Positions 4,998 through 8,937 of a stretch of 52,933 nucleotides of DNA are shown here, one piece after another. The translations under genes were made by a program, and so were the position numbers. The notes under the pieces were generated by a model. It worked only from the letters and a program-made list of their open reading frames with translations. It made no database searches and was not told the origin of the DNA. Position 1 is the stretch's first letter. The number at the start of each line of letters is the position of its first letter. Location of the stretch: IMG/VR virus record IMGVR_UViG_3300012920_000054, positions 1 through 52,933 of that record; one strand, given 5' to 3'. The stretch comes from a virus. Its lineage: Duplodnaviria; Caudoviricetes.

Positions 4998-5025
4998 AAT
5001 TGTCTTTAAGTACCGTTTTTATGAT

Positions 5026-5033
5026 GATAAATA
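5026..5033 (+). promoter_or_regulatory. Late-type promoter motif GATAAATA (for gp26-like gene)
   Basis: Resembles the T4 gp55-dependent TATAAATA; the same octamer recurs upstream of other structural genes. Confidence 0.6.
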
Positions 5034-5065
5034 GTTTTGGATATTATTGTGTACCATCTACACAC

Positions 5066-5073
5066 TATTTATC
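5066..5073 (-). promoter_or_regulatory. Late-type promoter motif GATAAATA (for tape measure gene)
   Basis: tatttatc on the plus strand, about 70 nt upstream of the TMP ATG at 4997. Confidence 0.6.
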
Positions 5074-5097
5074 CTTTTTATTAACAGGAGTTTTAAT

Positions 5098-5955
5098 ATG
5101 GCAAAAAGTAAAAGTAATCCATTAGCAGGTTTTTACCGTGCCCCTAAATTATACACGGCAATACCAACTGGTGGAAAATATTATGATGAGGACATCATAG
5201 ACTGGCCTGATACAAATGAATTGCCTATTTTTCCAATGACAGCAAAAGACGAAATGATCATGAAAAATCCAGACGCATTGCTTAACGGAGAAGCAGTTGC
5301 ACAGGTTATTAAAAGTTGTGTACCTTGCGTCAAAGATCCAAGAAAAATGGTTAGCAATGACGTAGACACATTATTAATTGCAATTAATGGTGCAACATAT
5401 GGCGATGAAGTAAATGTATCAGCAAAGTGTCCAGAGTGTGAAACAGACAATAGTGGCGCCGCAAGTGTGCAAACAAGTTTAGATAACATGGTTATGGTTA
5501 AGGACGACTATGAAGTAAACACTGATCAAGGATTAAAAATTACTGTTAAACCATTCCTATATGAAAGCACAATACAGGCAGGACTTGCCAACTTCAAAAC
5601 AACAAGAAGTTTACAGGCATTGCAAGAAGTAGAAGATGAGTTAGAGCAACTTAAAGCATTTAACGAAAACTTTATGAGTATTGCTGGTTTGAACTTTGAT
5701 TTGATCTGTAATAGTGTAAACAGTATTTCTGGCACTGACGCAGACGGTGAAGAGTTTATTGTTACTGATAACAAGAGTATCAGAGAGTTTATGGAAAACT
5801 GTGATGCCGCTATTGGTTCTGCAGTAGAAAAACGTATTGGCGATATCAATGAATTAGGTATCAGCAAAGACTATCAATTAGAGTGTGAGAACTGCGGTCA
5901 TGTATTTAAAACTACTATCGCATTTGATCCTGTAAATTTTTCCACGGCTTCTTAG
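5098..5955 (+). CDS. Baseplate hub assembly/tape-measure chaperone (T4 gp26-like), 285 aa
   Basis: Start revised to ATG 5098 (AGGAG at 5086-5090). Motifs PMTAKDEMIMKNPDALLNG and DVDTLLIAINGATYG, two CxxC pairs (CPEC, CENC), and a terminal FDPVNF. Confidence 0.85.
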   Translation: MAKSKSNPLAGFYRAPKLYTAIPTGGKYYDEDIIDWPDTNELPIFPMTAKDEMIMKNPDALLNGEAVAQVIKSCVPCVKDPRKMVSNDVDTLLIAINGATYGDEVNVSAKCPECETDNSGAASVQTSLDNMVMVKDDYEVNTDQGLKITVKPFLYESTIQAGLANFKTTRSLQALQEVEDELEQLKAFNENFMSIAGLNFDLICNSVNSISGTDADGEEFIVTDNKSIREFMENCDAAIGSAVEKRIGDINELGISKDYQLECENCGHVFKTTIAFDPVNFSTAS

Positions 5956-6176
5956 CAAAAGCAAAACCTGAGGCAGTACTGGAGTTAATTAACAGACTCC
6001 GCAAAGAAGCCGATACCTTAGAAAAGAGCCTTATAGAAATTGCTGTGTATAGTGGCGGAAGTATATCATGGCAAGATGCTCAACTTATGTCCATTAAAGA
6101 ACGTGAATTGACTGTTAAGGTAATCAACAAATATAATCAAATCAAAGCAGGTAAGACTGTAGGGGAAGAAATGTAA
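5940..6176 (+). CDS. gp51-like C-terminal extension (78 codons, -1 frame), probably translated by frameshift from the gp26-like gene
   Basis: Not in the ORF track. The open -1 frame reads FHGFLAKAKPEAVLELINRLRKEADTLEKSLIEIAVYSGGSISWQDAQLMSIKERELTVKVINKYNQIKAGKTVGEEM*. The SWQDAQLMSIKER segment resembles gp51/chaperone C-terminal motifs. No ATG until 6087; slippery AAATTTT at 5934-5940. Confidence 0.75.
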   Translation, partial: FHGFLAKAKPEAVLELINRLRKEADTLEKSLIEIAVYSGGSISWQDAQLMSIKERELTVKVINKYNQIKAGKTVGEEM

Positions 6177-6195
6177 GAGACACTTCGTGTCTTTT
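6175..6195 (+). terminator. Hairpin AGACAC-TTC-GTGTCT followed by T-run; probable terminator of the gp26/gp51 unit
   Basis: Perfect 6-bp stem 6178-6183/6187-6192 immediately after stop 6176, with a short T tract. Confidence 0.5.
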
Positions 6196-6245
6196 CAATC
6201 TACATTCATTCGTTCGTTTCACTCACTTCATTCACTTGATTGAAA
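6193..6245 (-). repeat. Imperfect hairpin with 8-bp outer stem, tandem sheared G-A pairs and GAA triloop
   Basis: TTTCAATC 6193-6200 pairs with GATTGAAA 6238-6245. The minus-strand interior is GTGAATGAAGTGAGT-GAA-ACGAACGAATGAAT. Confidence 0.65.
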
Positions 6246-6249
6246 CTTT

Positions 6250-6630
6250 TTATTAAGATAATCGATTTCATGCAGATTCCGAGGTCATATGAAGCCAACC
6301 AATAAGGCTTCATAAAAAAAGGACTTCATGCGAGTACACGTCGGCCATAAACGAAGACAGGTATTTTGTTTGCACTCTATTGGGCTCTGACCTTACCAAA
6401 CCTGCGTCGATTTTTAATCTCATCTCGCTTCACTTATGAGAATATAGAGTATAGCAATACTTTTCACAACTATTAAGACTTAGCAAATGTATCTCACCAG
6501 TGGGTGGACATTTAAGCATCCTTTCGGGTAGTGCTAAGAATCGCATAACAACCAATGCTCATGCTTACCATCACACGTCAGGATGGATTTCGCAACGGAA
6601 TCATAATTGGCCCGTCAACCGTATGTGTTG
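6250..6630 (-). ncRNA. Candidate large structured non-coding RNA of unknown family
   Basis: Lies in a 566-nt ORF-free gap in an otherwise fully coding genome, directly downstream of the GIY-YIG gene. About ten identifiable stems, a GAAA tetraloop and a pseudoknot; G-U pairs and the GNRA loop favour the minus strand. Boundaries approximate. Confidence 0.6.
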
Positions 6631-6742
6631 TTTGTATGTGTTTTAAGAGTTAGACTTTGTGTCTGTGAGTGCCATGTTTGTATTCAGTAGATACTTATAT
6701 ACACCGATATTAGTGTATAAATTTTTTTGAGTAAAAATGCTC

Positions 6743-7171
6743 TTAAGAGCCTTTAAGGTGTTCCTTAAGAATTTGAGAGCCACCTATACGAACATTGATT
6801 ATGCCGTTGTAGTAGTCATCACTGAGTAACACTTCTCTGTCGAATTGTTCCTTGGCTTCTAAATAACTTGATATGCCCCTGCTAGGACAAAAGTGAAGAA
6901 TTTCTCTGATAAAATTCTCCTCGCCATATTTTTCTACATCTTCTTTGAGATGATCTGAACTTCCCCAATATGTTTTCCAATCGCTTTCTTTGTAACCACG
7001 ACGTTTGTTCTTTTTGCCTTTCAAGGGAGGTTTGGTTGTTTTGAACTTGGCTAGTTTTTTACCAACATACTTCATGCCGTTCTTTTTGTTTGTGATTAGA
7101 TACACAAATGCTTCACAGTCTTCTGGTAATGTGTCTATAATTGCTTTTTCGTATAACCAAGGACTACGCAT
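6743..7171 (-). CDS. Small GIY-YIG endonuclease (catalytic domain only)
   Basis: AFVYLITNKKNGMKYVGKK (GIY...YIG equivalent), YWGSS, conserved Glu in YLEAKEQ and Asn in YYNG. Start overlaps the gp46 stop (TAATG). Confidence 0.85.
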   Translation of the reverse strand: MRSPWLYEKAIIDTLPEDCEAFVYLITNKKNGMKYVGKKLAKFKTTKPPLKGKKNKRRGYKESDWKTYWGSSDHLKEDVEKYGEENFIREILHFCPSRGISSYLEAKEQFDREVLLSDDYYNGIINVRIGGSQILKEHLKGS

Positions 7172-8937
7172 TATGAAATGTACTCTGTATCAGTATTATA
7201 TGCTGTAAAGCCGCCTTCTTTTACAACTGTTAATACATTATTTACACGACCTACAAGTTCTTCTTTATGTGATATAAGCAAAATGTTTTTAGAATGTTCT
7301 CTATTCATTTTCTTGAGTATTGCTAATGCGTTTTCAACACCAGTAGTATCCATACCACTGTCTATAAGTTCATCAACACACATCAAGTTCATAGGATGAT
7401 TGAGACTTTCAAATATGTCTCTGAATGCCCAACTTAGTCCTAGTATAAGTCTATTACGTTCTCCTCTACTTAAATTATCAAAGTCTAAGTCTCTGCCATA
7501 CTCTGTGATCTCTACTCCTAAGTCACTAGCAAATTTTACATCATGCGGCAAACCTAACTTGTCTAAGTAGTGTGCAAGTCTGTGATTTAGATATGCAATA
7601 TTTTGATCAATAATACGTTTACGGATAAAACTGTCTTTGCTTGTTAGAAGTTTGTATAAAAACTCTTGGTGTTCTTTTAGGTGTGTTACTTCGTTAATAA
7701 TTTCAAAGTCAATTTCTTGTATACCTGTTTCACGCAGATTTTCAACTTGTTCATCATATGGATTTATTTCTTCTGCTTTTTCTTCAAGTTGTTTTTCTAA
7801 TGTGTCTAAGTTGTGTTTGTGTTCTAATGCATTTTCTAATGTTTCGTAAAATGTATCTTGTAATTCTGGAAGTACACCTAACTCTTCTAATGCATTGTCA
7901 AGTTCTTGTATACGTTCCTCAAGTCCTTCTCTGTATTTTACTTCTTCTGTGTACTTGTCTTCGAGATCCTTAGTATATTCCTCATGTGTGTCTAAGTGTG
8001 CTGTACTTTGTTCACAAGCAGGACACACACCTTCTTTTGCTTTTTGTATATTGTTCTCTAGTTCTGCTAATTTAGAAATACTTCTATTCAACGAAGTTGT
8101 AGTAGTTGTTTGTTCTTTTTCGATAGTGTTTATAGCAGTTTTTTGCTCACTAACATCTGCATTACTTTTATGTGCGGAAATTTCTTGCTCAATATCTATC
8201 TCCATAAGTGTACTAATGGATGTAGCCATATCTTCAAGTTTTTCAGAATGTGTTTTTGCCCATGCCTTGCTTCTGCTAGTAATCTCACTAATATTTTTTT
8301 CAATACGTTTGTTACTAGCCTCTATGGCATTTATTTTAATTTCTTCTTCTTTGATTCTATCCCTGCTGTCTTTCATAAGTTCTTTGAGAACTTCTGCTTT
8401 TTCGGATAGTTCTGTTATGCCTAACAGTTGTTCAATCATGTCACGTTGATCATTAGGCTTCATACCTAAGAAAGGTTCTGTGTATGTGTTTAGTGCAATC
8501 AAATGCTTAAACATTAGATGAGGGAAACCAATAATTTTCTCAATATCTTTTTGTGTTTCTCTACTGTCGCCTTGTTGTTCTTGATCTCCTGGCTCTACAC
8601 CGTCAATATACAGTTTGAGAATGTTAGGACGTCTGCCTCTTTCTATTCTGTATTCAGTGCCATCAATTTCGAAGTCAACTGTAACAATCATTGACTTACC
8701 ATTTGTTTTGTTGATGAGGTTATCACGCCTAATGTTTGTTAGTGCTTCTCCGTATAGTGCATAACTTAGTGCATTGATAATAGTAGTTTTACCTGTACCA
8801 TTCCTACTTCCATCTCCGCCCATGTCTAGATTGTGCCCTAGTACCAATGTTAAATTAACATTGTCAAAATTTACTGCCTGAGTTTGAGCACCAACACTCA
8901 TAAAATTCTTAGCAGATACGTTTTTGATCTTCAACAT
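7171..8937 (-). CDS. Recombination exonuclease ATPase subunit (T4 gp46 / Rad50-SbcC-like)
   Basis: Walker A NGTGKTT, coiled coils, Zn-hook CPAC, signature LSRGE, Walker B CVDELID and H-loop ISH. Confidence 0.95.
   Translation of the reverse strand: MLKIKNVSAKNFMSVGAQTQAVNFDNVNLTLVLGHNLDMGGDGSRNGTGKTTIINALSYALYGEALTNIRRDNLINKTNGKSMIVTVDFEIDGTEYRIERGRRPNILKLYIDGVEPGDQEQQGDSRETQKDIEKIIGFPHLMFKHLIALNTYTEPFLGMKPNDQRDMIEQLLGITELSEKAEVLKELMKDSRDRIKEEEIKINAIEASNKRIEKNISEITSRSKAWAKTHSEKLEDMATSISTLMEIDIEQEISAHKSNADVSEQKTAINTIEKEQTTTTTSLNRSISKLAELENNIQKAKEGVCPACEQSTAHLDTHEEYTKDLEDKYTEEVKYREGLEERIQELDNALEELGVLPELQDTFYETLENALEHKHNLDTLEKQLEEKAEEINPYDEQVENLRETGIQEIDFEIINEVTHLKEHQEFLYKLLTSKDSFIRKRIIDQNIAYLNHRLAHYLDKLGLPHDVKFASDLGVEITEYGRDLDFDNLSRGERNRLILGLSWAFRDIFESLNHPMNLMCVDELIDSGMDTTGVENALAILKKMNREHSKNILLISHKEELVGRVNNVLTVVKEGGFTAYNTDTEYIS

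What the first reader, a model, noticed from the sequence alone, without database searches (positions are those of the whole stretch)
6176..6245. Twin GAA-triloop hairpins with tandem sheared G-A pairs: ssDNA-type signal, possible replication origin
Seen: the minus strand reads TTTCAATC-AAGTGAATGAAGTGAGT-GAA-ACGAACGAATGAATGTA-GATTGAAA and then AGACAC-GAA-GTGTCT. The first hairpin's interior pairs only if tandem GA/AG mismatches alternate with 2-bp Watson-Crick steps (three such blocks, one bulged A), so the fold is strand-specific. Established: d(C-GAA-G) triloops and tandem sheared G-A pairs are unusually stable in DNA; T4 origins and ColE1 use transcript-derived R-loop primers. Inference: the structure acts as ssDNA. 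With a structured RNA transcribed towards it at a convergent strand switch, the locus could be an RNA-primed origin or a packaging/nicking site.
Basis: partly seen in the sequence, partly recalled or inferred. Interest (0 to 1): 0.7.

Follow-up and report, generated by a model that had tools for sequence, protein, structure and literature searches.

The report
Terminal hairpins of a phage RNA
The two hairpins are real and conserved, but they look like the folded tail end of a large, uncatalogued non-coding RNA that marine T4-like phages carry behind a small nuclease gene, not a replication origin.

Summary
Observation confirmed. Minus strand 6178-6245 carries a GC-rich GAA-triloop hairpin and a long hairpin whose 8-bp outer stem encloses 2-bp Watson-Crick steps alternating with tandem G-A/A-G mismatches.

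In 44 distinct homologues, 89.3% of cells pair against 69.1% in shuffles (0 of 500). 15 of 16 pairs change on both sides, and the GA positions stay GA. G-U wobbles occur only in the minus sense (21 against 0).

The ssDNA/origin reading is not supported:
- The hairpins are one end of a ~510-nt ORF-free conserved element (6173-6685), found in 196 of 241 fetched phage loci.
- In 110 of 112 informative loci found by DNA motif alone, the element abuts the tail of a ~141-aa GIY-YIG gene.
- Contigs of two RNA libraries lie on its core and fold back at 6685.
- GC skew only follows gene direction.
- Most relatives have no convergent strand switch.

Best reading (about 0.6): the hairpins are the 3' terminal domain of a minus-sense ncRNA, comprising an end hairpin plus a conserved "GA-rod" module.

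The element matches no Rfam family. This scan already reported the RNA on other DNA. New here are its tail domain, the evidence for its strand, and a likely 5' end.

The parts
6178..6192 (-). Hairpin 1: 6-bp GC-rich stem with GAA triloop, the distal (3') end of the element
   Evidence: 99.2% of cells paired and 5 of 6 pairs changed on both sides in 44 distinct sequences. 60 distinct stem sequences across 117 distinct loci; loops read GAA, GUA, GCA or GGA in the minus sense in 60 of them. Listed as terminator-like on the minus strand only.
6193..6245 (-). Hairpin 2, the 'GA rod': 8-bp outer stem, four 2-bp Watson-Crick steps separated by tandem G-A/A-G mismatches (one with an extra A), GAA triloop
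   Evidence: Tandem positions are GA in 33, 31, 41 and 24 of 44; the loop is GAA in 34 of 44. The short form in the other subfamily has GA/GA in 78 of 78 and G-N-N-A loops in 69 of 78.
6246..6267 (-). A/U-rich linker of variable length between the RNA core and the hairpins
   Evidence: Alignments. Its length varies from about 20 to 90 nt, and many relatives carry an extra hairpin there.
6173..6685 (-). Whole conserved ORF-free element (putative ~510-nt ncRNA), of which the hairpins are the 3' end
   Evidence: nhmmer finds it in 38 of 40 baseplate-anchored loci and in 196 of 241 loci. No ORF of 60 aa or more in the window copy. No Rfam match. Contigs of RNA libraries X19 and X20 lie on 6316-6685.
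6692..6699 (-). TATAAGTA box, a possible late-type promoter 6-7 nt upstream of the inferred RNA 5' end (~6685)
   Evidence: position. Foldback joints at 6680-6685 in X19 and X20. A similar box directly follows the GIY-YIG stop in 10 (strict) plus 11 (loose) of 43 distinct long-hairpin relatives. This is inference; the box is not enriched in the window.
6743..7171 (-). GIY-YIG nuclease gene (142 aa) whose 3' end faces the element
   Evidence: Pfam PF19835 SegE_GIY-YIG, E 4.6e-33. Adjacent to the element in 110 of 112 informative loci found by DNA motif alone.
5047..6176 (+). Convergent baseplate-hub gene (PF12322) with a -1-frame extension ending in TAA 6174-6176, one base before hairpin 1

Best explanation
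The twin hairpins are the 3'-terminal domain of a ~510-nt structured non-coding RNA. The RNA is read from the minus strand, the same direction as the upstream GIY-YIG nuclease gene, and probably starts near 6685.

Hairpin 1 is a sequence-free but strictly base-paired GC-rich stem with a G-N-A triloop. It most likely defines and protects the RNA's 3' end, acting as a weak intrinsic terminator and/or a block to 3' exonucleases. In this window, where a plus-strand baseplate gene converges on it, it probably also stops that transcript.

Hairpin 2 is a conserved structural module. It is a helix in which tandem (presumably sheared) G-A pairs alternate with 2-bp Watson-Crick steps under a G...A loop. 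It has one GA block in most relatives and is expanded to three or four blocks in this phage's subfamily. It most likely serves as a rigid recognition surface for a protein or for another part of the RNA.

Shown: the fold, its conservation, its strand bias, its fixed link to the element, and the presence of the element's core in RNA libraries.
Inferred: the RNA's polarity, both of its ends, and every functional role.
For: Fold and covariation:
-.
- Three relatives (L034, L026, L030) replace the inner GA blocks by a fully Watson-Crick 7-bp stem under the same GAA loop. Those positions therefore lie in a helix.

Minus-sense polarity:
- Hairpin 2 has 21 G.U cells in the minus sense and 0 A.C cells.
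- In the short-form subfamily the mismatch positions are GA/GA in 78 of 78, and the loops are G-N-N-A in 69 of 78.
- Hairpin 1 loops are G-N-A in the minus sense in 60 of 117 distinct loci.
- For the whole element in 78 distinct sequences, the consensus fold is -128.0 (minus) against -114.2 (plus). In the 54 pairs predicted in both senses, minus-sense wobbles outnumber plus-sense ones 81 to 36.
- A strongly covarying helix is flanked by two minus-sense G.U pairs kept in 57 and 63 of 78.
- In the 16-sequence alignment two helices gain G.U in the minus sense (4 and 12 sequences) where the plus sense has A.C.

One unit with the RNA:
- All 52 model hits lie at the distal end of the element.
- There are none at E<=0.01 in 46 loci without the core.
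- In L038 the nuclease gene and the element are inverted together.

Expression and 5' end:
- In the 3-kb stretch, the contigs of RNA libraries X19 and X20 (one study) lie almost only on 6316-6685.
- Both carry the same foldback joint at 6680-6685 with a 5-nt microhomology. This marks an RNA end.
- A late-promoter-like box sits 6-7 nt upstream on the minus strand.

Terminator: the consensus scan lists hairpin 1 as terminator-like on the minus strand only.
Against: - Polarity was not measured. Contigs carry no strand, and the foldback joint fits equally a 3' end of a plus-sense RNA.
- One helix (6281-6286 with 6322-6327) shows G.T wobbles in the plus sense in the window, L019, L023, L016 and L013, with a compensatory change in L013 (read).
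- The wobble count in shared pairs is 81:36, not clean.
- A plus-only hairpin covaries: GC 18, AT 15, with 41 plus-sense wobbles.
- Single-sequence folding favours plus: z -1.58 against -0.29.
- Downstream of hairpin 1 in the minus sense, relatives have no uniform U-tract (columns 101-109).
- The promoter-like box is absent directly after the stop codon in 22 of 43 distinct long-hairpin relatives and is not enriched in the window.
- The nuclease protein, including its basic insert, is the same whether the rod is long, short or the RNA is not detected. Nothing ties the rod to that protein.
Confidence: 0.6

Rival explanations
1. The two hairpins are only transcription terminators at a gene junction. 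In the plus sense they are tandem intrinsic terminators of the baseplate operon, or together they form a bidirectional terminator. On this view the GA pattern has no function of its own.
For: - Hairpin 1 starts one base after the stop codon of the plus-strand ORF.
- In the plus sense both hairpins are followed by T-rich runs in the window and its close relatives.
- 20 of 24 long-hairpin loci with a clear neighbouring ORF have a convergent neighbour.
- Hairpin 1's sequence is free while its pairing is kept, as expected of a terminator.
Against: - The plus-sense site does not reach the scan's T-run criterion.
- A terminator needs no conserved mismatches, yet the GA positions are nearly invariant: 78 of 78 in the short form.
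- Wobbles are all minus-sense.
- In the plus sense the interior would be tandem pyrimidine-pyrimidine mismatches.
- 58 of 92 loci have no convergent gene.
- The hairpins never occur without the RNA core.
Confidence: 0.15
2. The element is a plus-sense RNA and the twin hairpins are its 5' domain. The end at 6685 would then be its 3' end.
For: - Plus-sense wobbles in the helix 6281-6286/6322-6327 and in a plus-only covarying hairpin.
- A better single-sequence z-score for plus.
- The foldback joint fits self-priming from an RNA 3' end.
Against: - In hairpin 2 there are 21 minus-sense wobbles and no plus-sense ones.
- GA/GA and G...A loops have no stable plus-sense equivalent.
- The consensus fold is better in the minus sense, and wobbles in shared pairs run 81:36.
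- There is no terminator at 6685 in the plus sense.
- In 58 of 92 loci both flanking genes run in the minus sense.
Confidence: 0.15
3. One reading: the minus DNA strand folds into these hairpins when single-stranded. They would then act as a single-strand initiation, nicking or packaging signal, possibly with the neighbouring RNA as primer.
For: - The fold is strand-specific and conserved.
- C-GAA-G triloops and tandem G-A pairs are very stable in DNA (recalled: Hirao and colleagues; not checked here).
- The locus lies beside the recombination genes 46/47.
Against: - No GC-skew feature exists beyond gene orientation, and the window is only about 14% of the genome.
- The hairpins are always the end of a large element with many covarying helices and G.U pairs, which points to RNA.
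- The convergent switch is not conserved.
- The DNA energy model does not form the zipper, although that model lacks G-A bonuses.
- No nicking, primase or terminase link was found.
Confidence: 0.07

Closest known systems
Large 'ornate' phage-borne ncRNAs of unknown function (GOLLD, ROOL, HEARO; Rfam), and the GIY-YIG-associated RNA already reported by this scan on other DNA
   Same: It is several hundred nucleotides long, ORF-free and highly conserved, with many covarying helices. It is carried by uncultured aquatic phages and has no known role. Like the scan's earlier reports, it abuts a ~141-147-aa GIY-YIG gene and holds two near-identical short boxes.
   Different: There is no match to any of 4227 Rfam models in the window or in 23 related loci. 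The hairpin tail with its multi-block GA rod has not, to my knowledge, been described for those families.
Polynucleobacter-1 RNA motif (Rfam RF01718), a lead from earlier notes of this scan
   Same: Earlier notes call the GIY-YIG-linked phage RNA a larger relative of this motif.
   Different: This was not reproduced for this window. cmscan gave no RF01718 row at E<=10 over 5900-6900 or at E<=1 over 11 related loci.
Helices with tandem sheared G-A pairs and GNA/GNRA-type loops (RNA internal-loop motifs; the DNA d(GCGAAGC) mini-hairpin and GA-rich repeat hairpins; recalled)
   Same: 5'-GA-3' faces 5'-GA-3' between Watson-Crick pairs. Loops begin with G and end with A, and the fold is strand-specific.
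   Different: Here the unit is iterated three to four times in one natural hairpin and covaries across a family. The sheared geometry is assumed, not shown.
Rho-independent (including bidirectional) terminators
   Same: There is a GC-rich stem-loop at a gene junction with free sequence and kept pairing, and T-rich flanks in this subfamily.
   Different: The U-tract is weak or absent in the minus sense in relatives. The conserved mismatch pattern of hairpin 2 is not explained by termination.
T4 oriF/oriG R-loop origins and single-strand initiation (ssi) signals of ssDNA phages and plasmids (recalled)
   Same: The shared idea is a transcript running into a structured, strand-specific DNA region.
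   Different: No promoter-plus-unwinding-element architecture, skew signal or primase link was found. The element is a long, conserved, folded RNA rather than a short primer.

Membership tests
GIY-YIG-associated large phage ncRNA (earlier reports of this scan; not a published family) | An ORF-free conserved stretch of about 400-520 nt lies directly behind a ~141-147-aa GIY-YIG gene | tested here: met
   The gene is adjacent in 110 of 112 informative loci found by DNA motif alone.
GIY-YIG-associated large phage ncRNA (earlier reports of this scan; not a published family) | Two short boxes are nearly identical to each other and change together | tested here: met
   The window boxes near 6268-6277 and 6326-6335 change in parallel in L011, L012, L015 and L019. 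This was read by eye and was not counted formally.
Any Rfam 15 family (including RF01718 Polynucleobacter-1, GOLLD, ROOL, HEARO, group I intron, tmRNA) | A covariance-model match at gathering score, or at least a low E-value | tested here: not met
   0 matches at gathering score in the window and in 12 loci. Only chance-level rows appear at E<=10 over 5900-6900 and at E<=1 in 11 loci.
Intrinsic terminator, minus sense (hairpin 1) | A GC-rich stem of 5 or more pairs with a 3-8-nt loop | tested here: met
Intrinsic terminator, minus sense (hairpin 1) | A U-tract directly after the stem | tested here: inconclusive
   The window passes the scan's loose rule. The tails in relatives are mixed A/T (columns 101-109).
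Intrinsic terminator, plus sense (hairpin 1) | A stem-loop followed by 5 or more T in 8 | tested here: not met
   It is not listed on the plus strand; by my count the tail has 4 T in 8. The criterion is simple, so a weak terminator is still possible.
Replication origin (T4 oriF/oriG type or ssi signal) | A GC-skew or coverage inflection at the site | tested here: not met
   The cumulative skew minimum lies near 10.9 kb, and the skew tracks gene direction. The window is only about 14% of the genome, so this is a weak test.
Replication origin (T4 oriF/oriG type or ssi signal) | A persistent RNA-DNA hybrid or primase recognition of the folded ssDNA | not testable with these tools
   This needs origin mapping or biochemistry.
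Kink-turn | A 3-nt bulge followed on the same strand by G-A, facing a G-A on the other strand (recalled definition) | tested here: not met
   By inspection, the GA blocks are symmetric 2x2 loops. The one 3x2 loop is not followed by GA on the long side.
Tandem sheared G-A helix with G...A loops | 5'-GA-3' faces 5'-GA-3' between Watson-Crick pairs, kept while the flanking pairs covary | tested here: met
Tandem sheared G-A helix with G...A loops | Sheared (trans Hoogsteen/sugar-edge) geometry | not testable with these tools
   This needs NMR, a crystal structure or chemical probing.

The most novel reading that the evidence does not exclude
The GA rod plus end hairpin is the handle by which a protein partner grips this RNA. 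The most exciting candidate is the adjacent minimal GIY-YIG nuclease, which has no DNA-binding domain of its own. That would make the cassette an RNA-scaffolded or RNA-directed nuclease of a kind not yet known for the GIY-YIG fold. The expansion from one to four GA blocks would then tune that contact.
Probability: 0.08. Interest if true: 0.85.

Novelty: new variant of a known kind. Interest (0 to 1): 0.5.

Why it matters
This work turns an isolated odd hairpin into a defined part of a widespread RNA that is still unnamed in the catalogues. The RNA occurs in at least 120 IMG/VR contigs by one 21-nt motif, and its nuclease partner gene in at least 600 stretches.

For that RNA, the work supplies:
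- a likely polarity;
- a likely 5' end;
- a 3' domain;
- a compact covariance model.

These are what is needed to design probes, RACE primers and deletion constructs.

The iterated tandem-GA helix is also a clean natural example of a modular non-Watson-Crick rod. Its length varies between subfamilies while its chemistry is fixed.

If the rod proves to be a protein or RNA docking site, it would give the first functional handle on the cassette.

Tried and rejected
- Known RNA families: four Rfam searches gave nothing, and ARAGORN found no tRNA or tmRNA.
- Isolate phages: blastn of the element against 50,697 phage records gave only three 25-nt chance hits. Phage Melnitz has the nuclease gene but only a 148-nt gap behind it.
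- Group I intron, hammerhead and kink-turn were considered from recalled consensus features and dropped. There was no Rfam support, no three-way junction and no bulge-plus-GA arrangement.
- A strong sigma-70-like site at 6108-6137 lies inside the coding extension and is not kept in L006, so it was set aside.
- A crude all-against-all covariation scan on the nhmmer alignment was too noisy to settle the strand.
- mafft-qinsi could not run because an extension is missing, so I used MAFFT plus RNAalifold and the covariance-model tools instead.
- A 7-nt complementarity between the CA-rich 5' leader and hairpin 2 in the window does not covary in L006, so it was dropped.
- Nuclease insert length against rod length shows no relation.

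RNA libraries:
- No contig of X19 or X20 covers 6178-6287, so the hairpins themselves are not shown to be in RNA. This is no evidence of absence.
- X18 covers only coding pieces.
- The DNA-run contigs show nothing that I can interpret at the site.

Literature:
- Two full-text searches returned no paper on an RNA behind GIY-YIG genes in T4-like phages.
- I saw only the listings and the starts of abstracts and read no paper.
- Supplements were not consulted and may hold relevant RNA lists, for example those of Weinberg et al. 2010 (PMC2864571).

Full report
**What is there.**

The window is a 52.9-kb fragment of an uncultured marine virus. CheckV estimates it at 14% complete, which implies a very large genome. 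Its genes are T4-like:
- a baseplate-hub gene (PF12322, 5047-5955, plus strand);
- a SegE-type GIY-YIG gene (6743-7171, minus strand);
- homologues of recombination genes 46 and 47 behind it.

Between the plus-strand block, whose -1-frame extension ends with TAA at 6174-6176, and the GIY-YIG gene lie 566 bases without an ORF of 60 aa or more.

The finding covers the first 70 of these bases. The RNA energy model returns the proposed zipper as the minimum-energy fold of the minus strand. Neither the RNA nor the DNA energies stand out much from shuffles. The case therefore rests on comparison with relatives.

**Conservation of the hairpins.**

The baseplate protein retrieved 40 related IMG/VR loci. 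The nuclease protein retrieved 80 more of at least 600 matching stretches. A 21-nt DNA motif retrieved 120 more, with the scan stopped at its limit.

- 89.3% of cells pair against 69.1 +/- 1.0 in column shuffles (0 of 500).
- The covariation score is 0.540 against 0.185 (0 of 500).
- Sliding the partners by 1-3 columns drops the score to 0.085 or less.
- 15 of 16 pairs show changes on both sides.

The innermost step is paired in 44 of 44 (GC 30/AU 14; UA 31/CG 13). One step is weak, at 44% paired.

The mismatch positions do not drift. They read GA in 33, 31, 41 and 24 of 44, and the loop is GAA in 34 of 44. In L034, L026 and L030 the inner GA blocks are replaced by a perfect 7-bp stem under the same loop, which shows that these positions sit in a helix.

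A covariance model built from A2 gave these results:
- It finds exactly one copy in the window.
- It finds one in each of 51 further loci among 100 sources.
- On its own (structure-fitted) alignment, hairpin 1 is 99.2% paired, with 5 of 6 pairs changed on both sides.

Across 117 distinct loci, hairpin 1 has 60 different stem sequences.

**The short form.**

In the largest subfamily (78 distinct sequences), hairpin 2 is a 20-nt hairpin with a 4-5-bp stem, one tandem GA block, two pairs and a tetraloop. GA faces GA in 78 of 78, and the loop reads G-N-N-A in 69 of 78.

The window's subfamily is thus an expansion of a one-block module to three or four blocks. The same mini-module appears as an insertion elsewhere in the element in L012, L013, L015 and L020.

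**The hairpins are the end of something larger.**

The whole gap is conserved at the nucleotide level, at 68-97% identity, even where the flanking proteins are only 55-60% identical.

Iterative nhmmer defines a 512-column element, window 6173-6684. It is present in 38 of 40 baseplate-anchored loci and in 196 of 241 loci overall. It has many covarying helices.

Among loci found by the DNA motif alone:
- 110 have the GIY-YIG gene with its 3' end abutting the far end of the element;
- 8 are too short to tell;
- 2 lack the gene.

In L038 the gene and the element are inverted together.

The converse does not hold. Phage Melnitz and many other loci have the gene without the element.

The long-form hairpins never occur without the core. 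There are 0 hits at E<=0.01 in 46 such loci, and one at E 0.49.

Nothing in Rfam 15 matches the window or 23 related loci. No isolate phage record carries the element at blastn sensitivity.

Earlier reports of this scan describe the same nuclease-linked RNA on other genomes. I took two leads from them:
- The Polynucleobacter-1 lead, which I could not reproduce here.
- The 'twin box' description, which matches what I had already seen.

**Which strand.**

Evidence for the minus sense:
- In hairpin 2 all 21 wobble cells are G.U in the minus sense, and none is A.C.
- GA/GA and G...A loops make sense only in the minus sense.
- For the whole element, the consensus fold of 78 sequences is -128.0 (minus) against -114.2 (plus).
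- In the 54 pairs predicted in both senses, minus-sense wobbles number 81 against 36.
- A helix with heavy covariation is flanked by two minus-sense G.U pairs kept in 57 and 63 of 78.

Evidence against the minus sense:
- One helix near 6281-6327 has plus-sense wobbles in five sequences.
- One plus-only hairpin covaries with 41 plus-sense wobbles.
- Single-sequence z-scores favour plus.

I judge the minus sense the more likely, at about 4:1. It has not been measured.

**Expression and the other end.**

Of three RNA libraries sharing words with 5000-8000, two from one study (X19, X20) have contigs almost only on 6316-6685. The third (X18) covers only coding pieces.

Both X19 and X20 carry the same foldback chimera. 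The plus sequence runs to 6680-6685 and then turns back at 6444-6439, with a 5-nt microhomology. This is the signature of self-priming at the end of an RNA or of its cDNA, so an RNA end lies at about 6685, which is also the boundary of conservation.

In the minus sense this would be a 5' end. A box differing at one position from the T4 late-promoter consensus, as I recall it, lies at 6699-6692, 6-7 nt upstream. A similar box directly follows the nuclease stop codon in 21 of 43 distinct long-hairpin relatives: 10 strict and 11 loose. The box is not enriched in the window, so the promoter is an inference.

**Origin hypothesis.**

- GC and AT skew follow gene orientation. The cumulative minimum is at the divergent switch near 10.9 kb, not at 6.2 kb.
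- The neighbouring gene beyond hairpin 1 is co-directional in 58 loci, convergent in 34 and unclear in 13. The 'convergent strand switch' is therefore a feature of this subfamily only.
- No test available here speaks for ssDNA function, and none can strictly exclude it.

**Mechanism proposed.**

A minus-sense RNA of about 510 nt starts near 6685 and runs through, in order:
- a CA-rich leader with repeated short motifs, which is specific to this subfamily;
- a conserved core;
- an A/U-rich linker;
- the GA rod and a GC-rich end hairpin.

The end hairpin is terminator-like on the minus strand by the simple scan. It probably fixes and protects the 3' end. In this window it can also serve the converging baseplate transcript.

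The rod is a conserved, rigid, non-Watson-Crick module and is presumably a recognition surface. Its partner is unknown. The nuclease protein does not vary with rod length.

**Verdict.**

- The feature is the 3' domain of an uncatalogued but widespread phage RNA that this scan has met before.
- Confidence in the main reading is about 0.6.

Noticed in passing
window 5934-6176 (+): A canonical -1 slippery heptamer (A AAT TTT) lies 13 nt before the baseplate-hub stop codon. The -1 frame then stays open for about 80 codons without a start codon. The heptamer and a 79-81-codon extension recur in the related loci (38 of 40 by my script; the two misses are script artefacts).
   Followed up: partly
window about 6268-6277 and 6326-6335: Two near-identical 9-10-nt boxes inside the RNA core change in parallel between relatives, for example in L011, L012, L015 and L019. 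They behave as direct repeats that covary, not as a helix. This is unexplained.
   Followed up: partly
window 6600-6685 (-), and the same place in families A/B: The 5' leader of the element is CA-rich. It carries 2-5 copies of short motifs, such as an AUGGCA/AAGGCAC type and a CAGACACNAAGUC type. The leader is absent in the largest subfamily, where the conserved core starts at the nuclease stop codon. This could be a set of protein-binding repeats.
   Followed up: no
window 25001-46558 (+): A single open reading frame of 7185 codons lies within the structural-gene block.
   Followed up: no
window, whole: The T4 late-promoter octamer occurs once in 52.9 kb against 6.6 +/- 2.7 expected (0 of 100 shuffles had none). 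It is depleted rather than enriched.
   Followed up: no
L012, L013, L015, L020 (element core, between the two boxes): A copy of the one-block GA mini-hairpin is inserted at a second place in the RNA in these relatives. This suggests a portable module.
   Followed up: no
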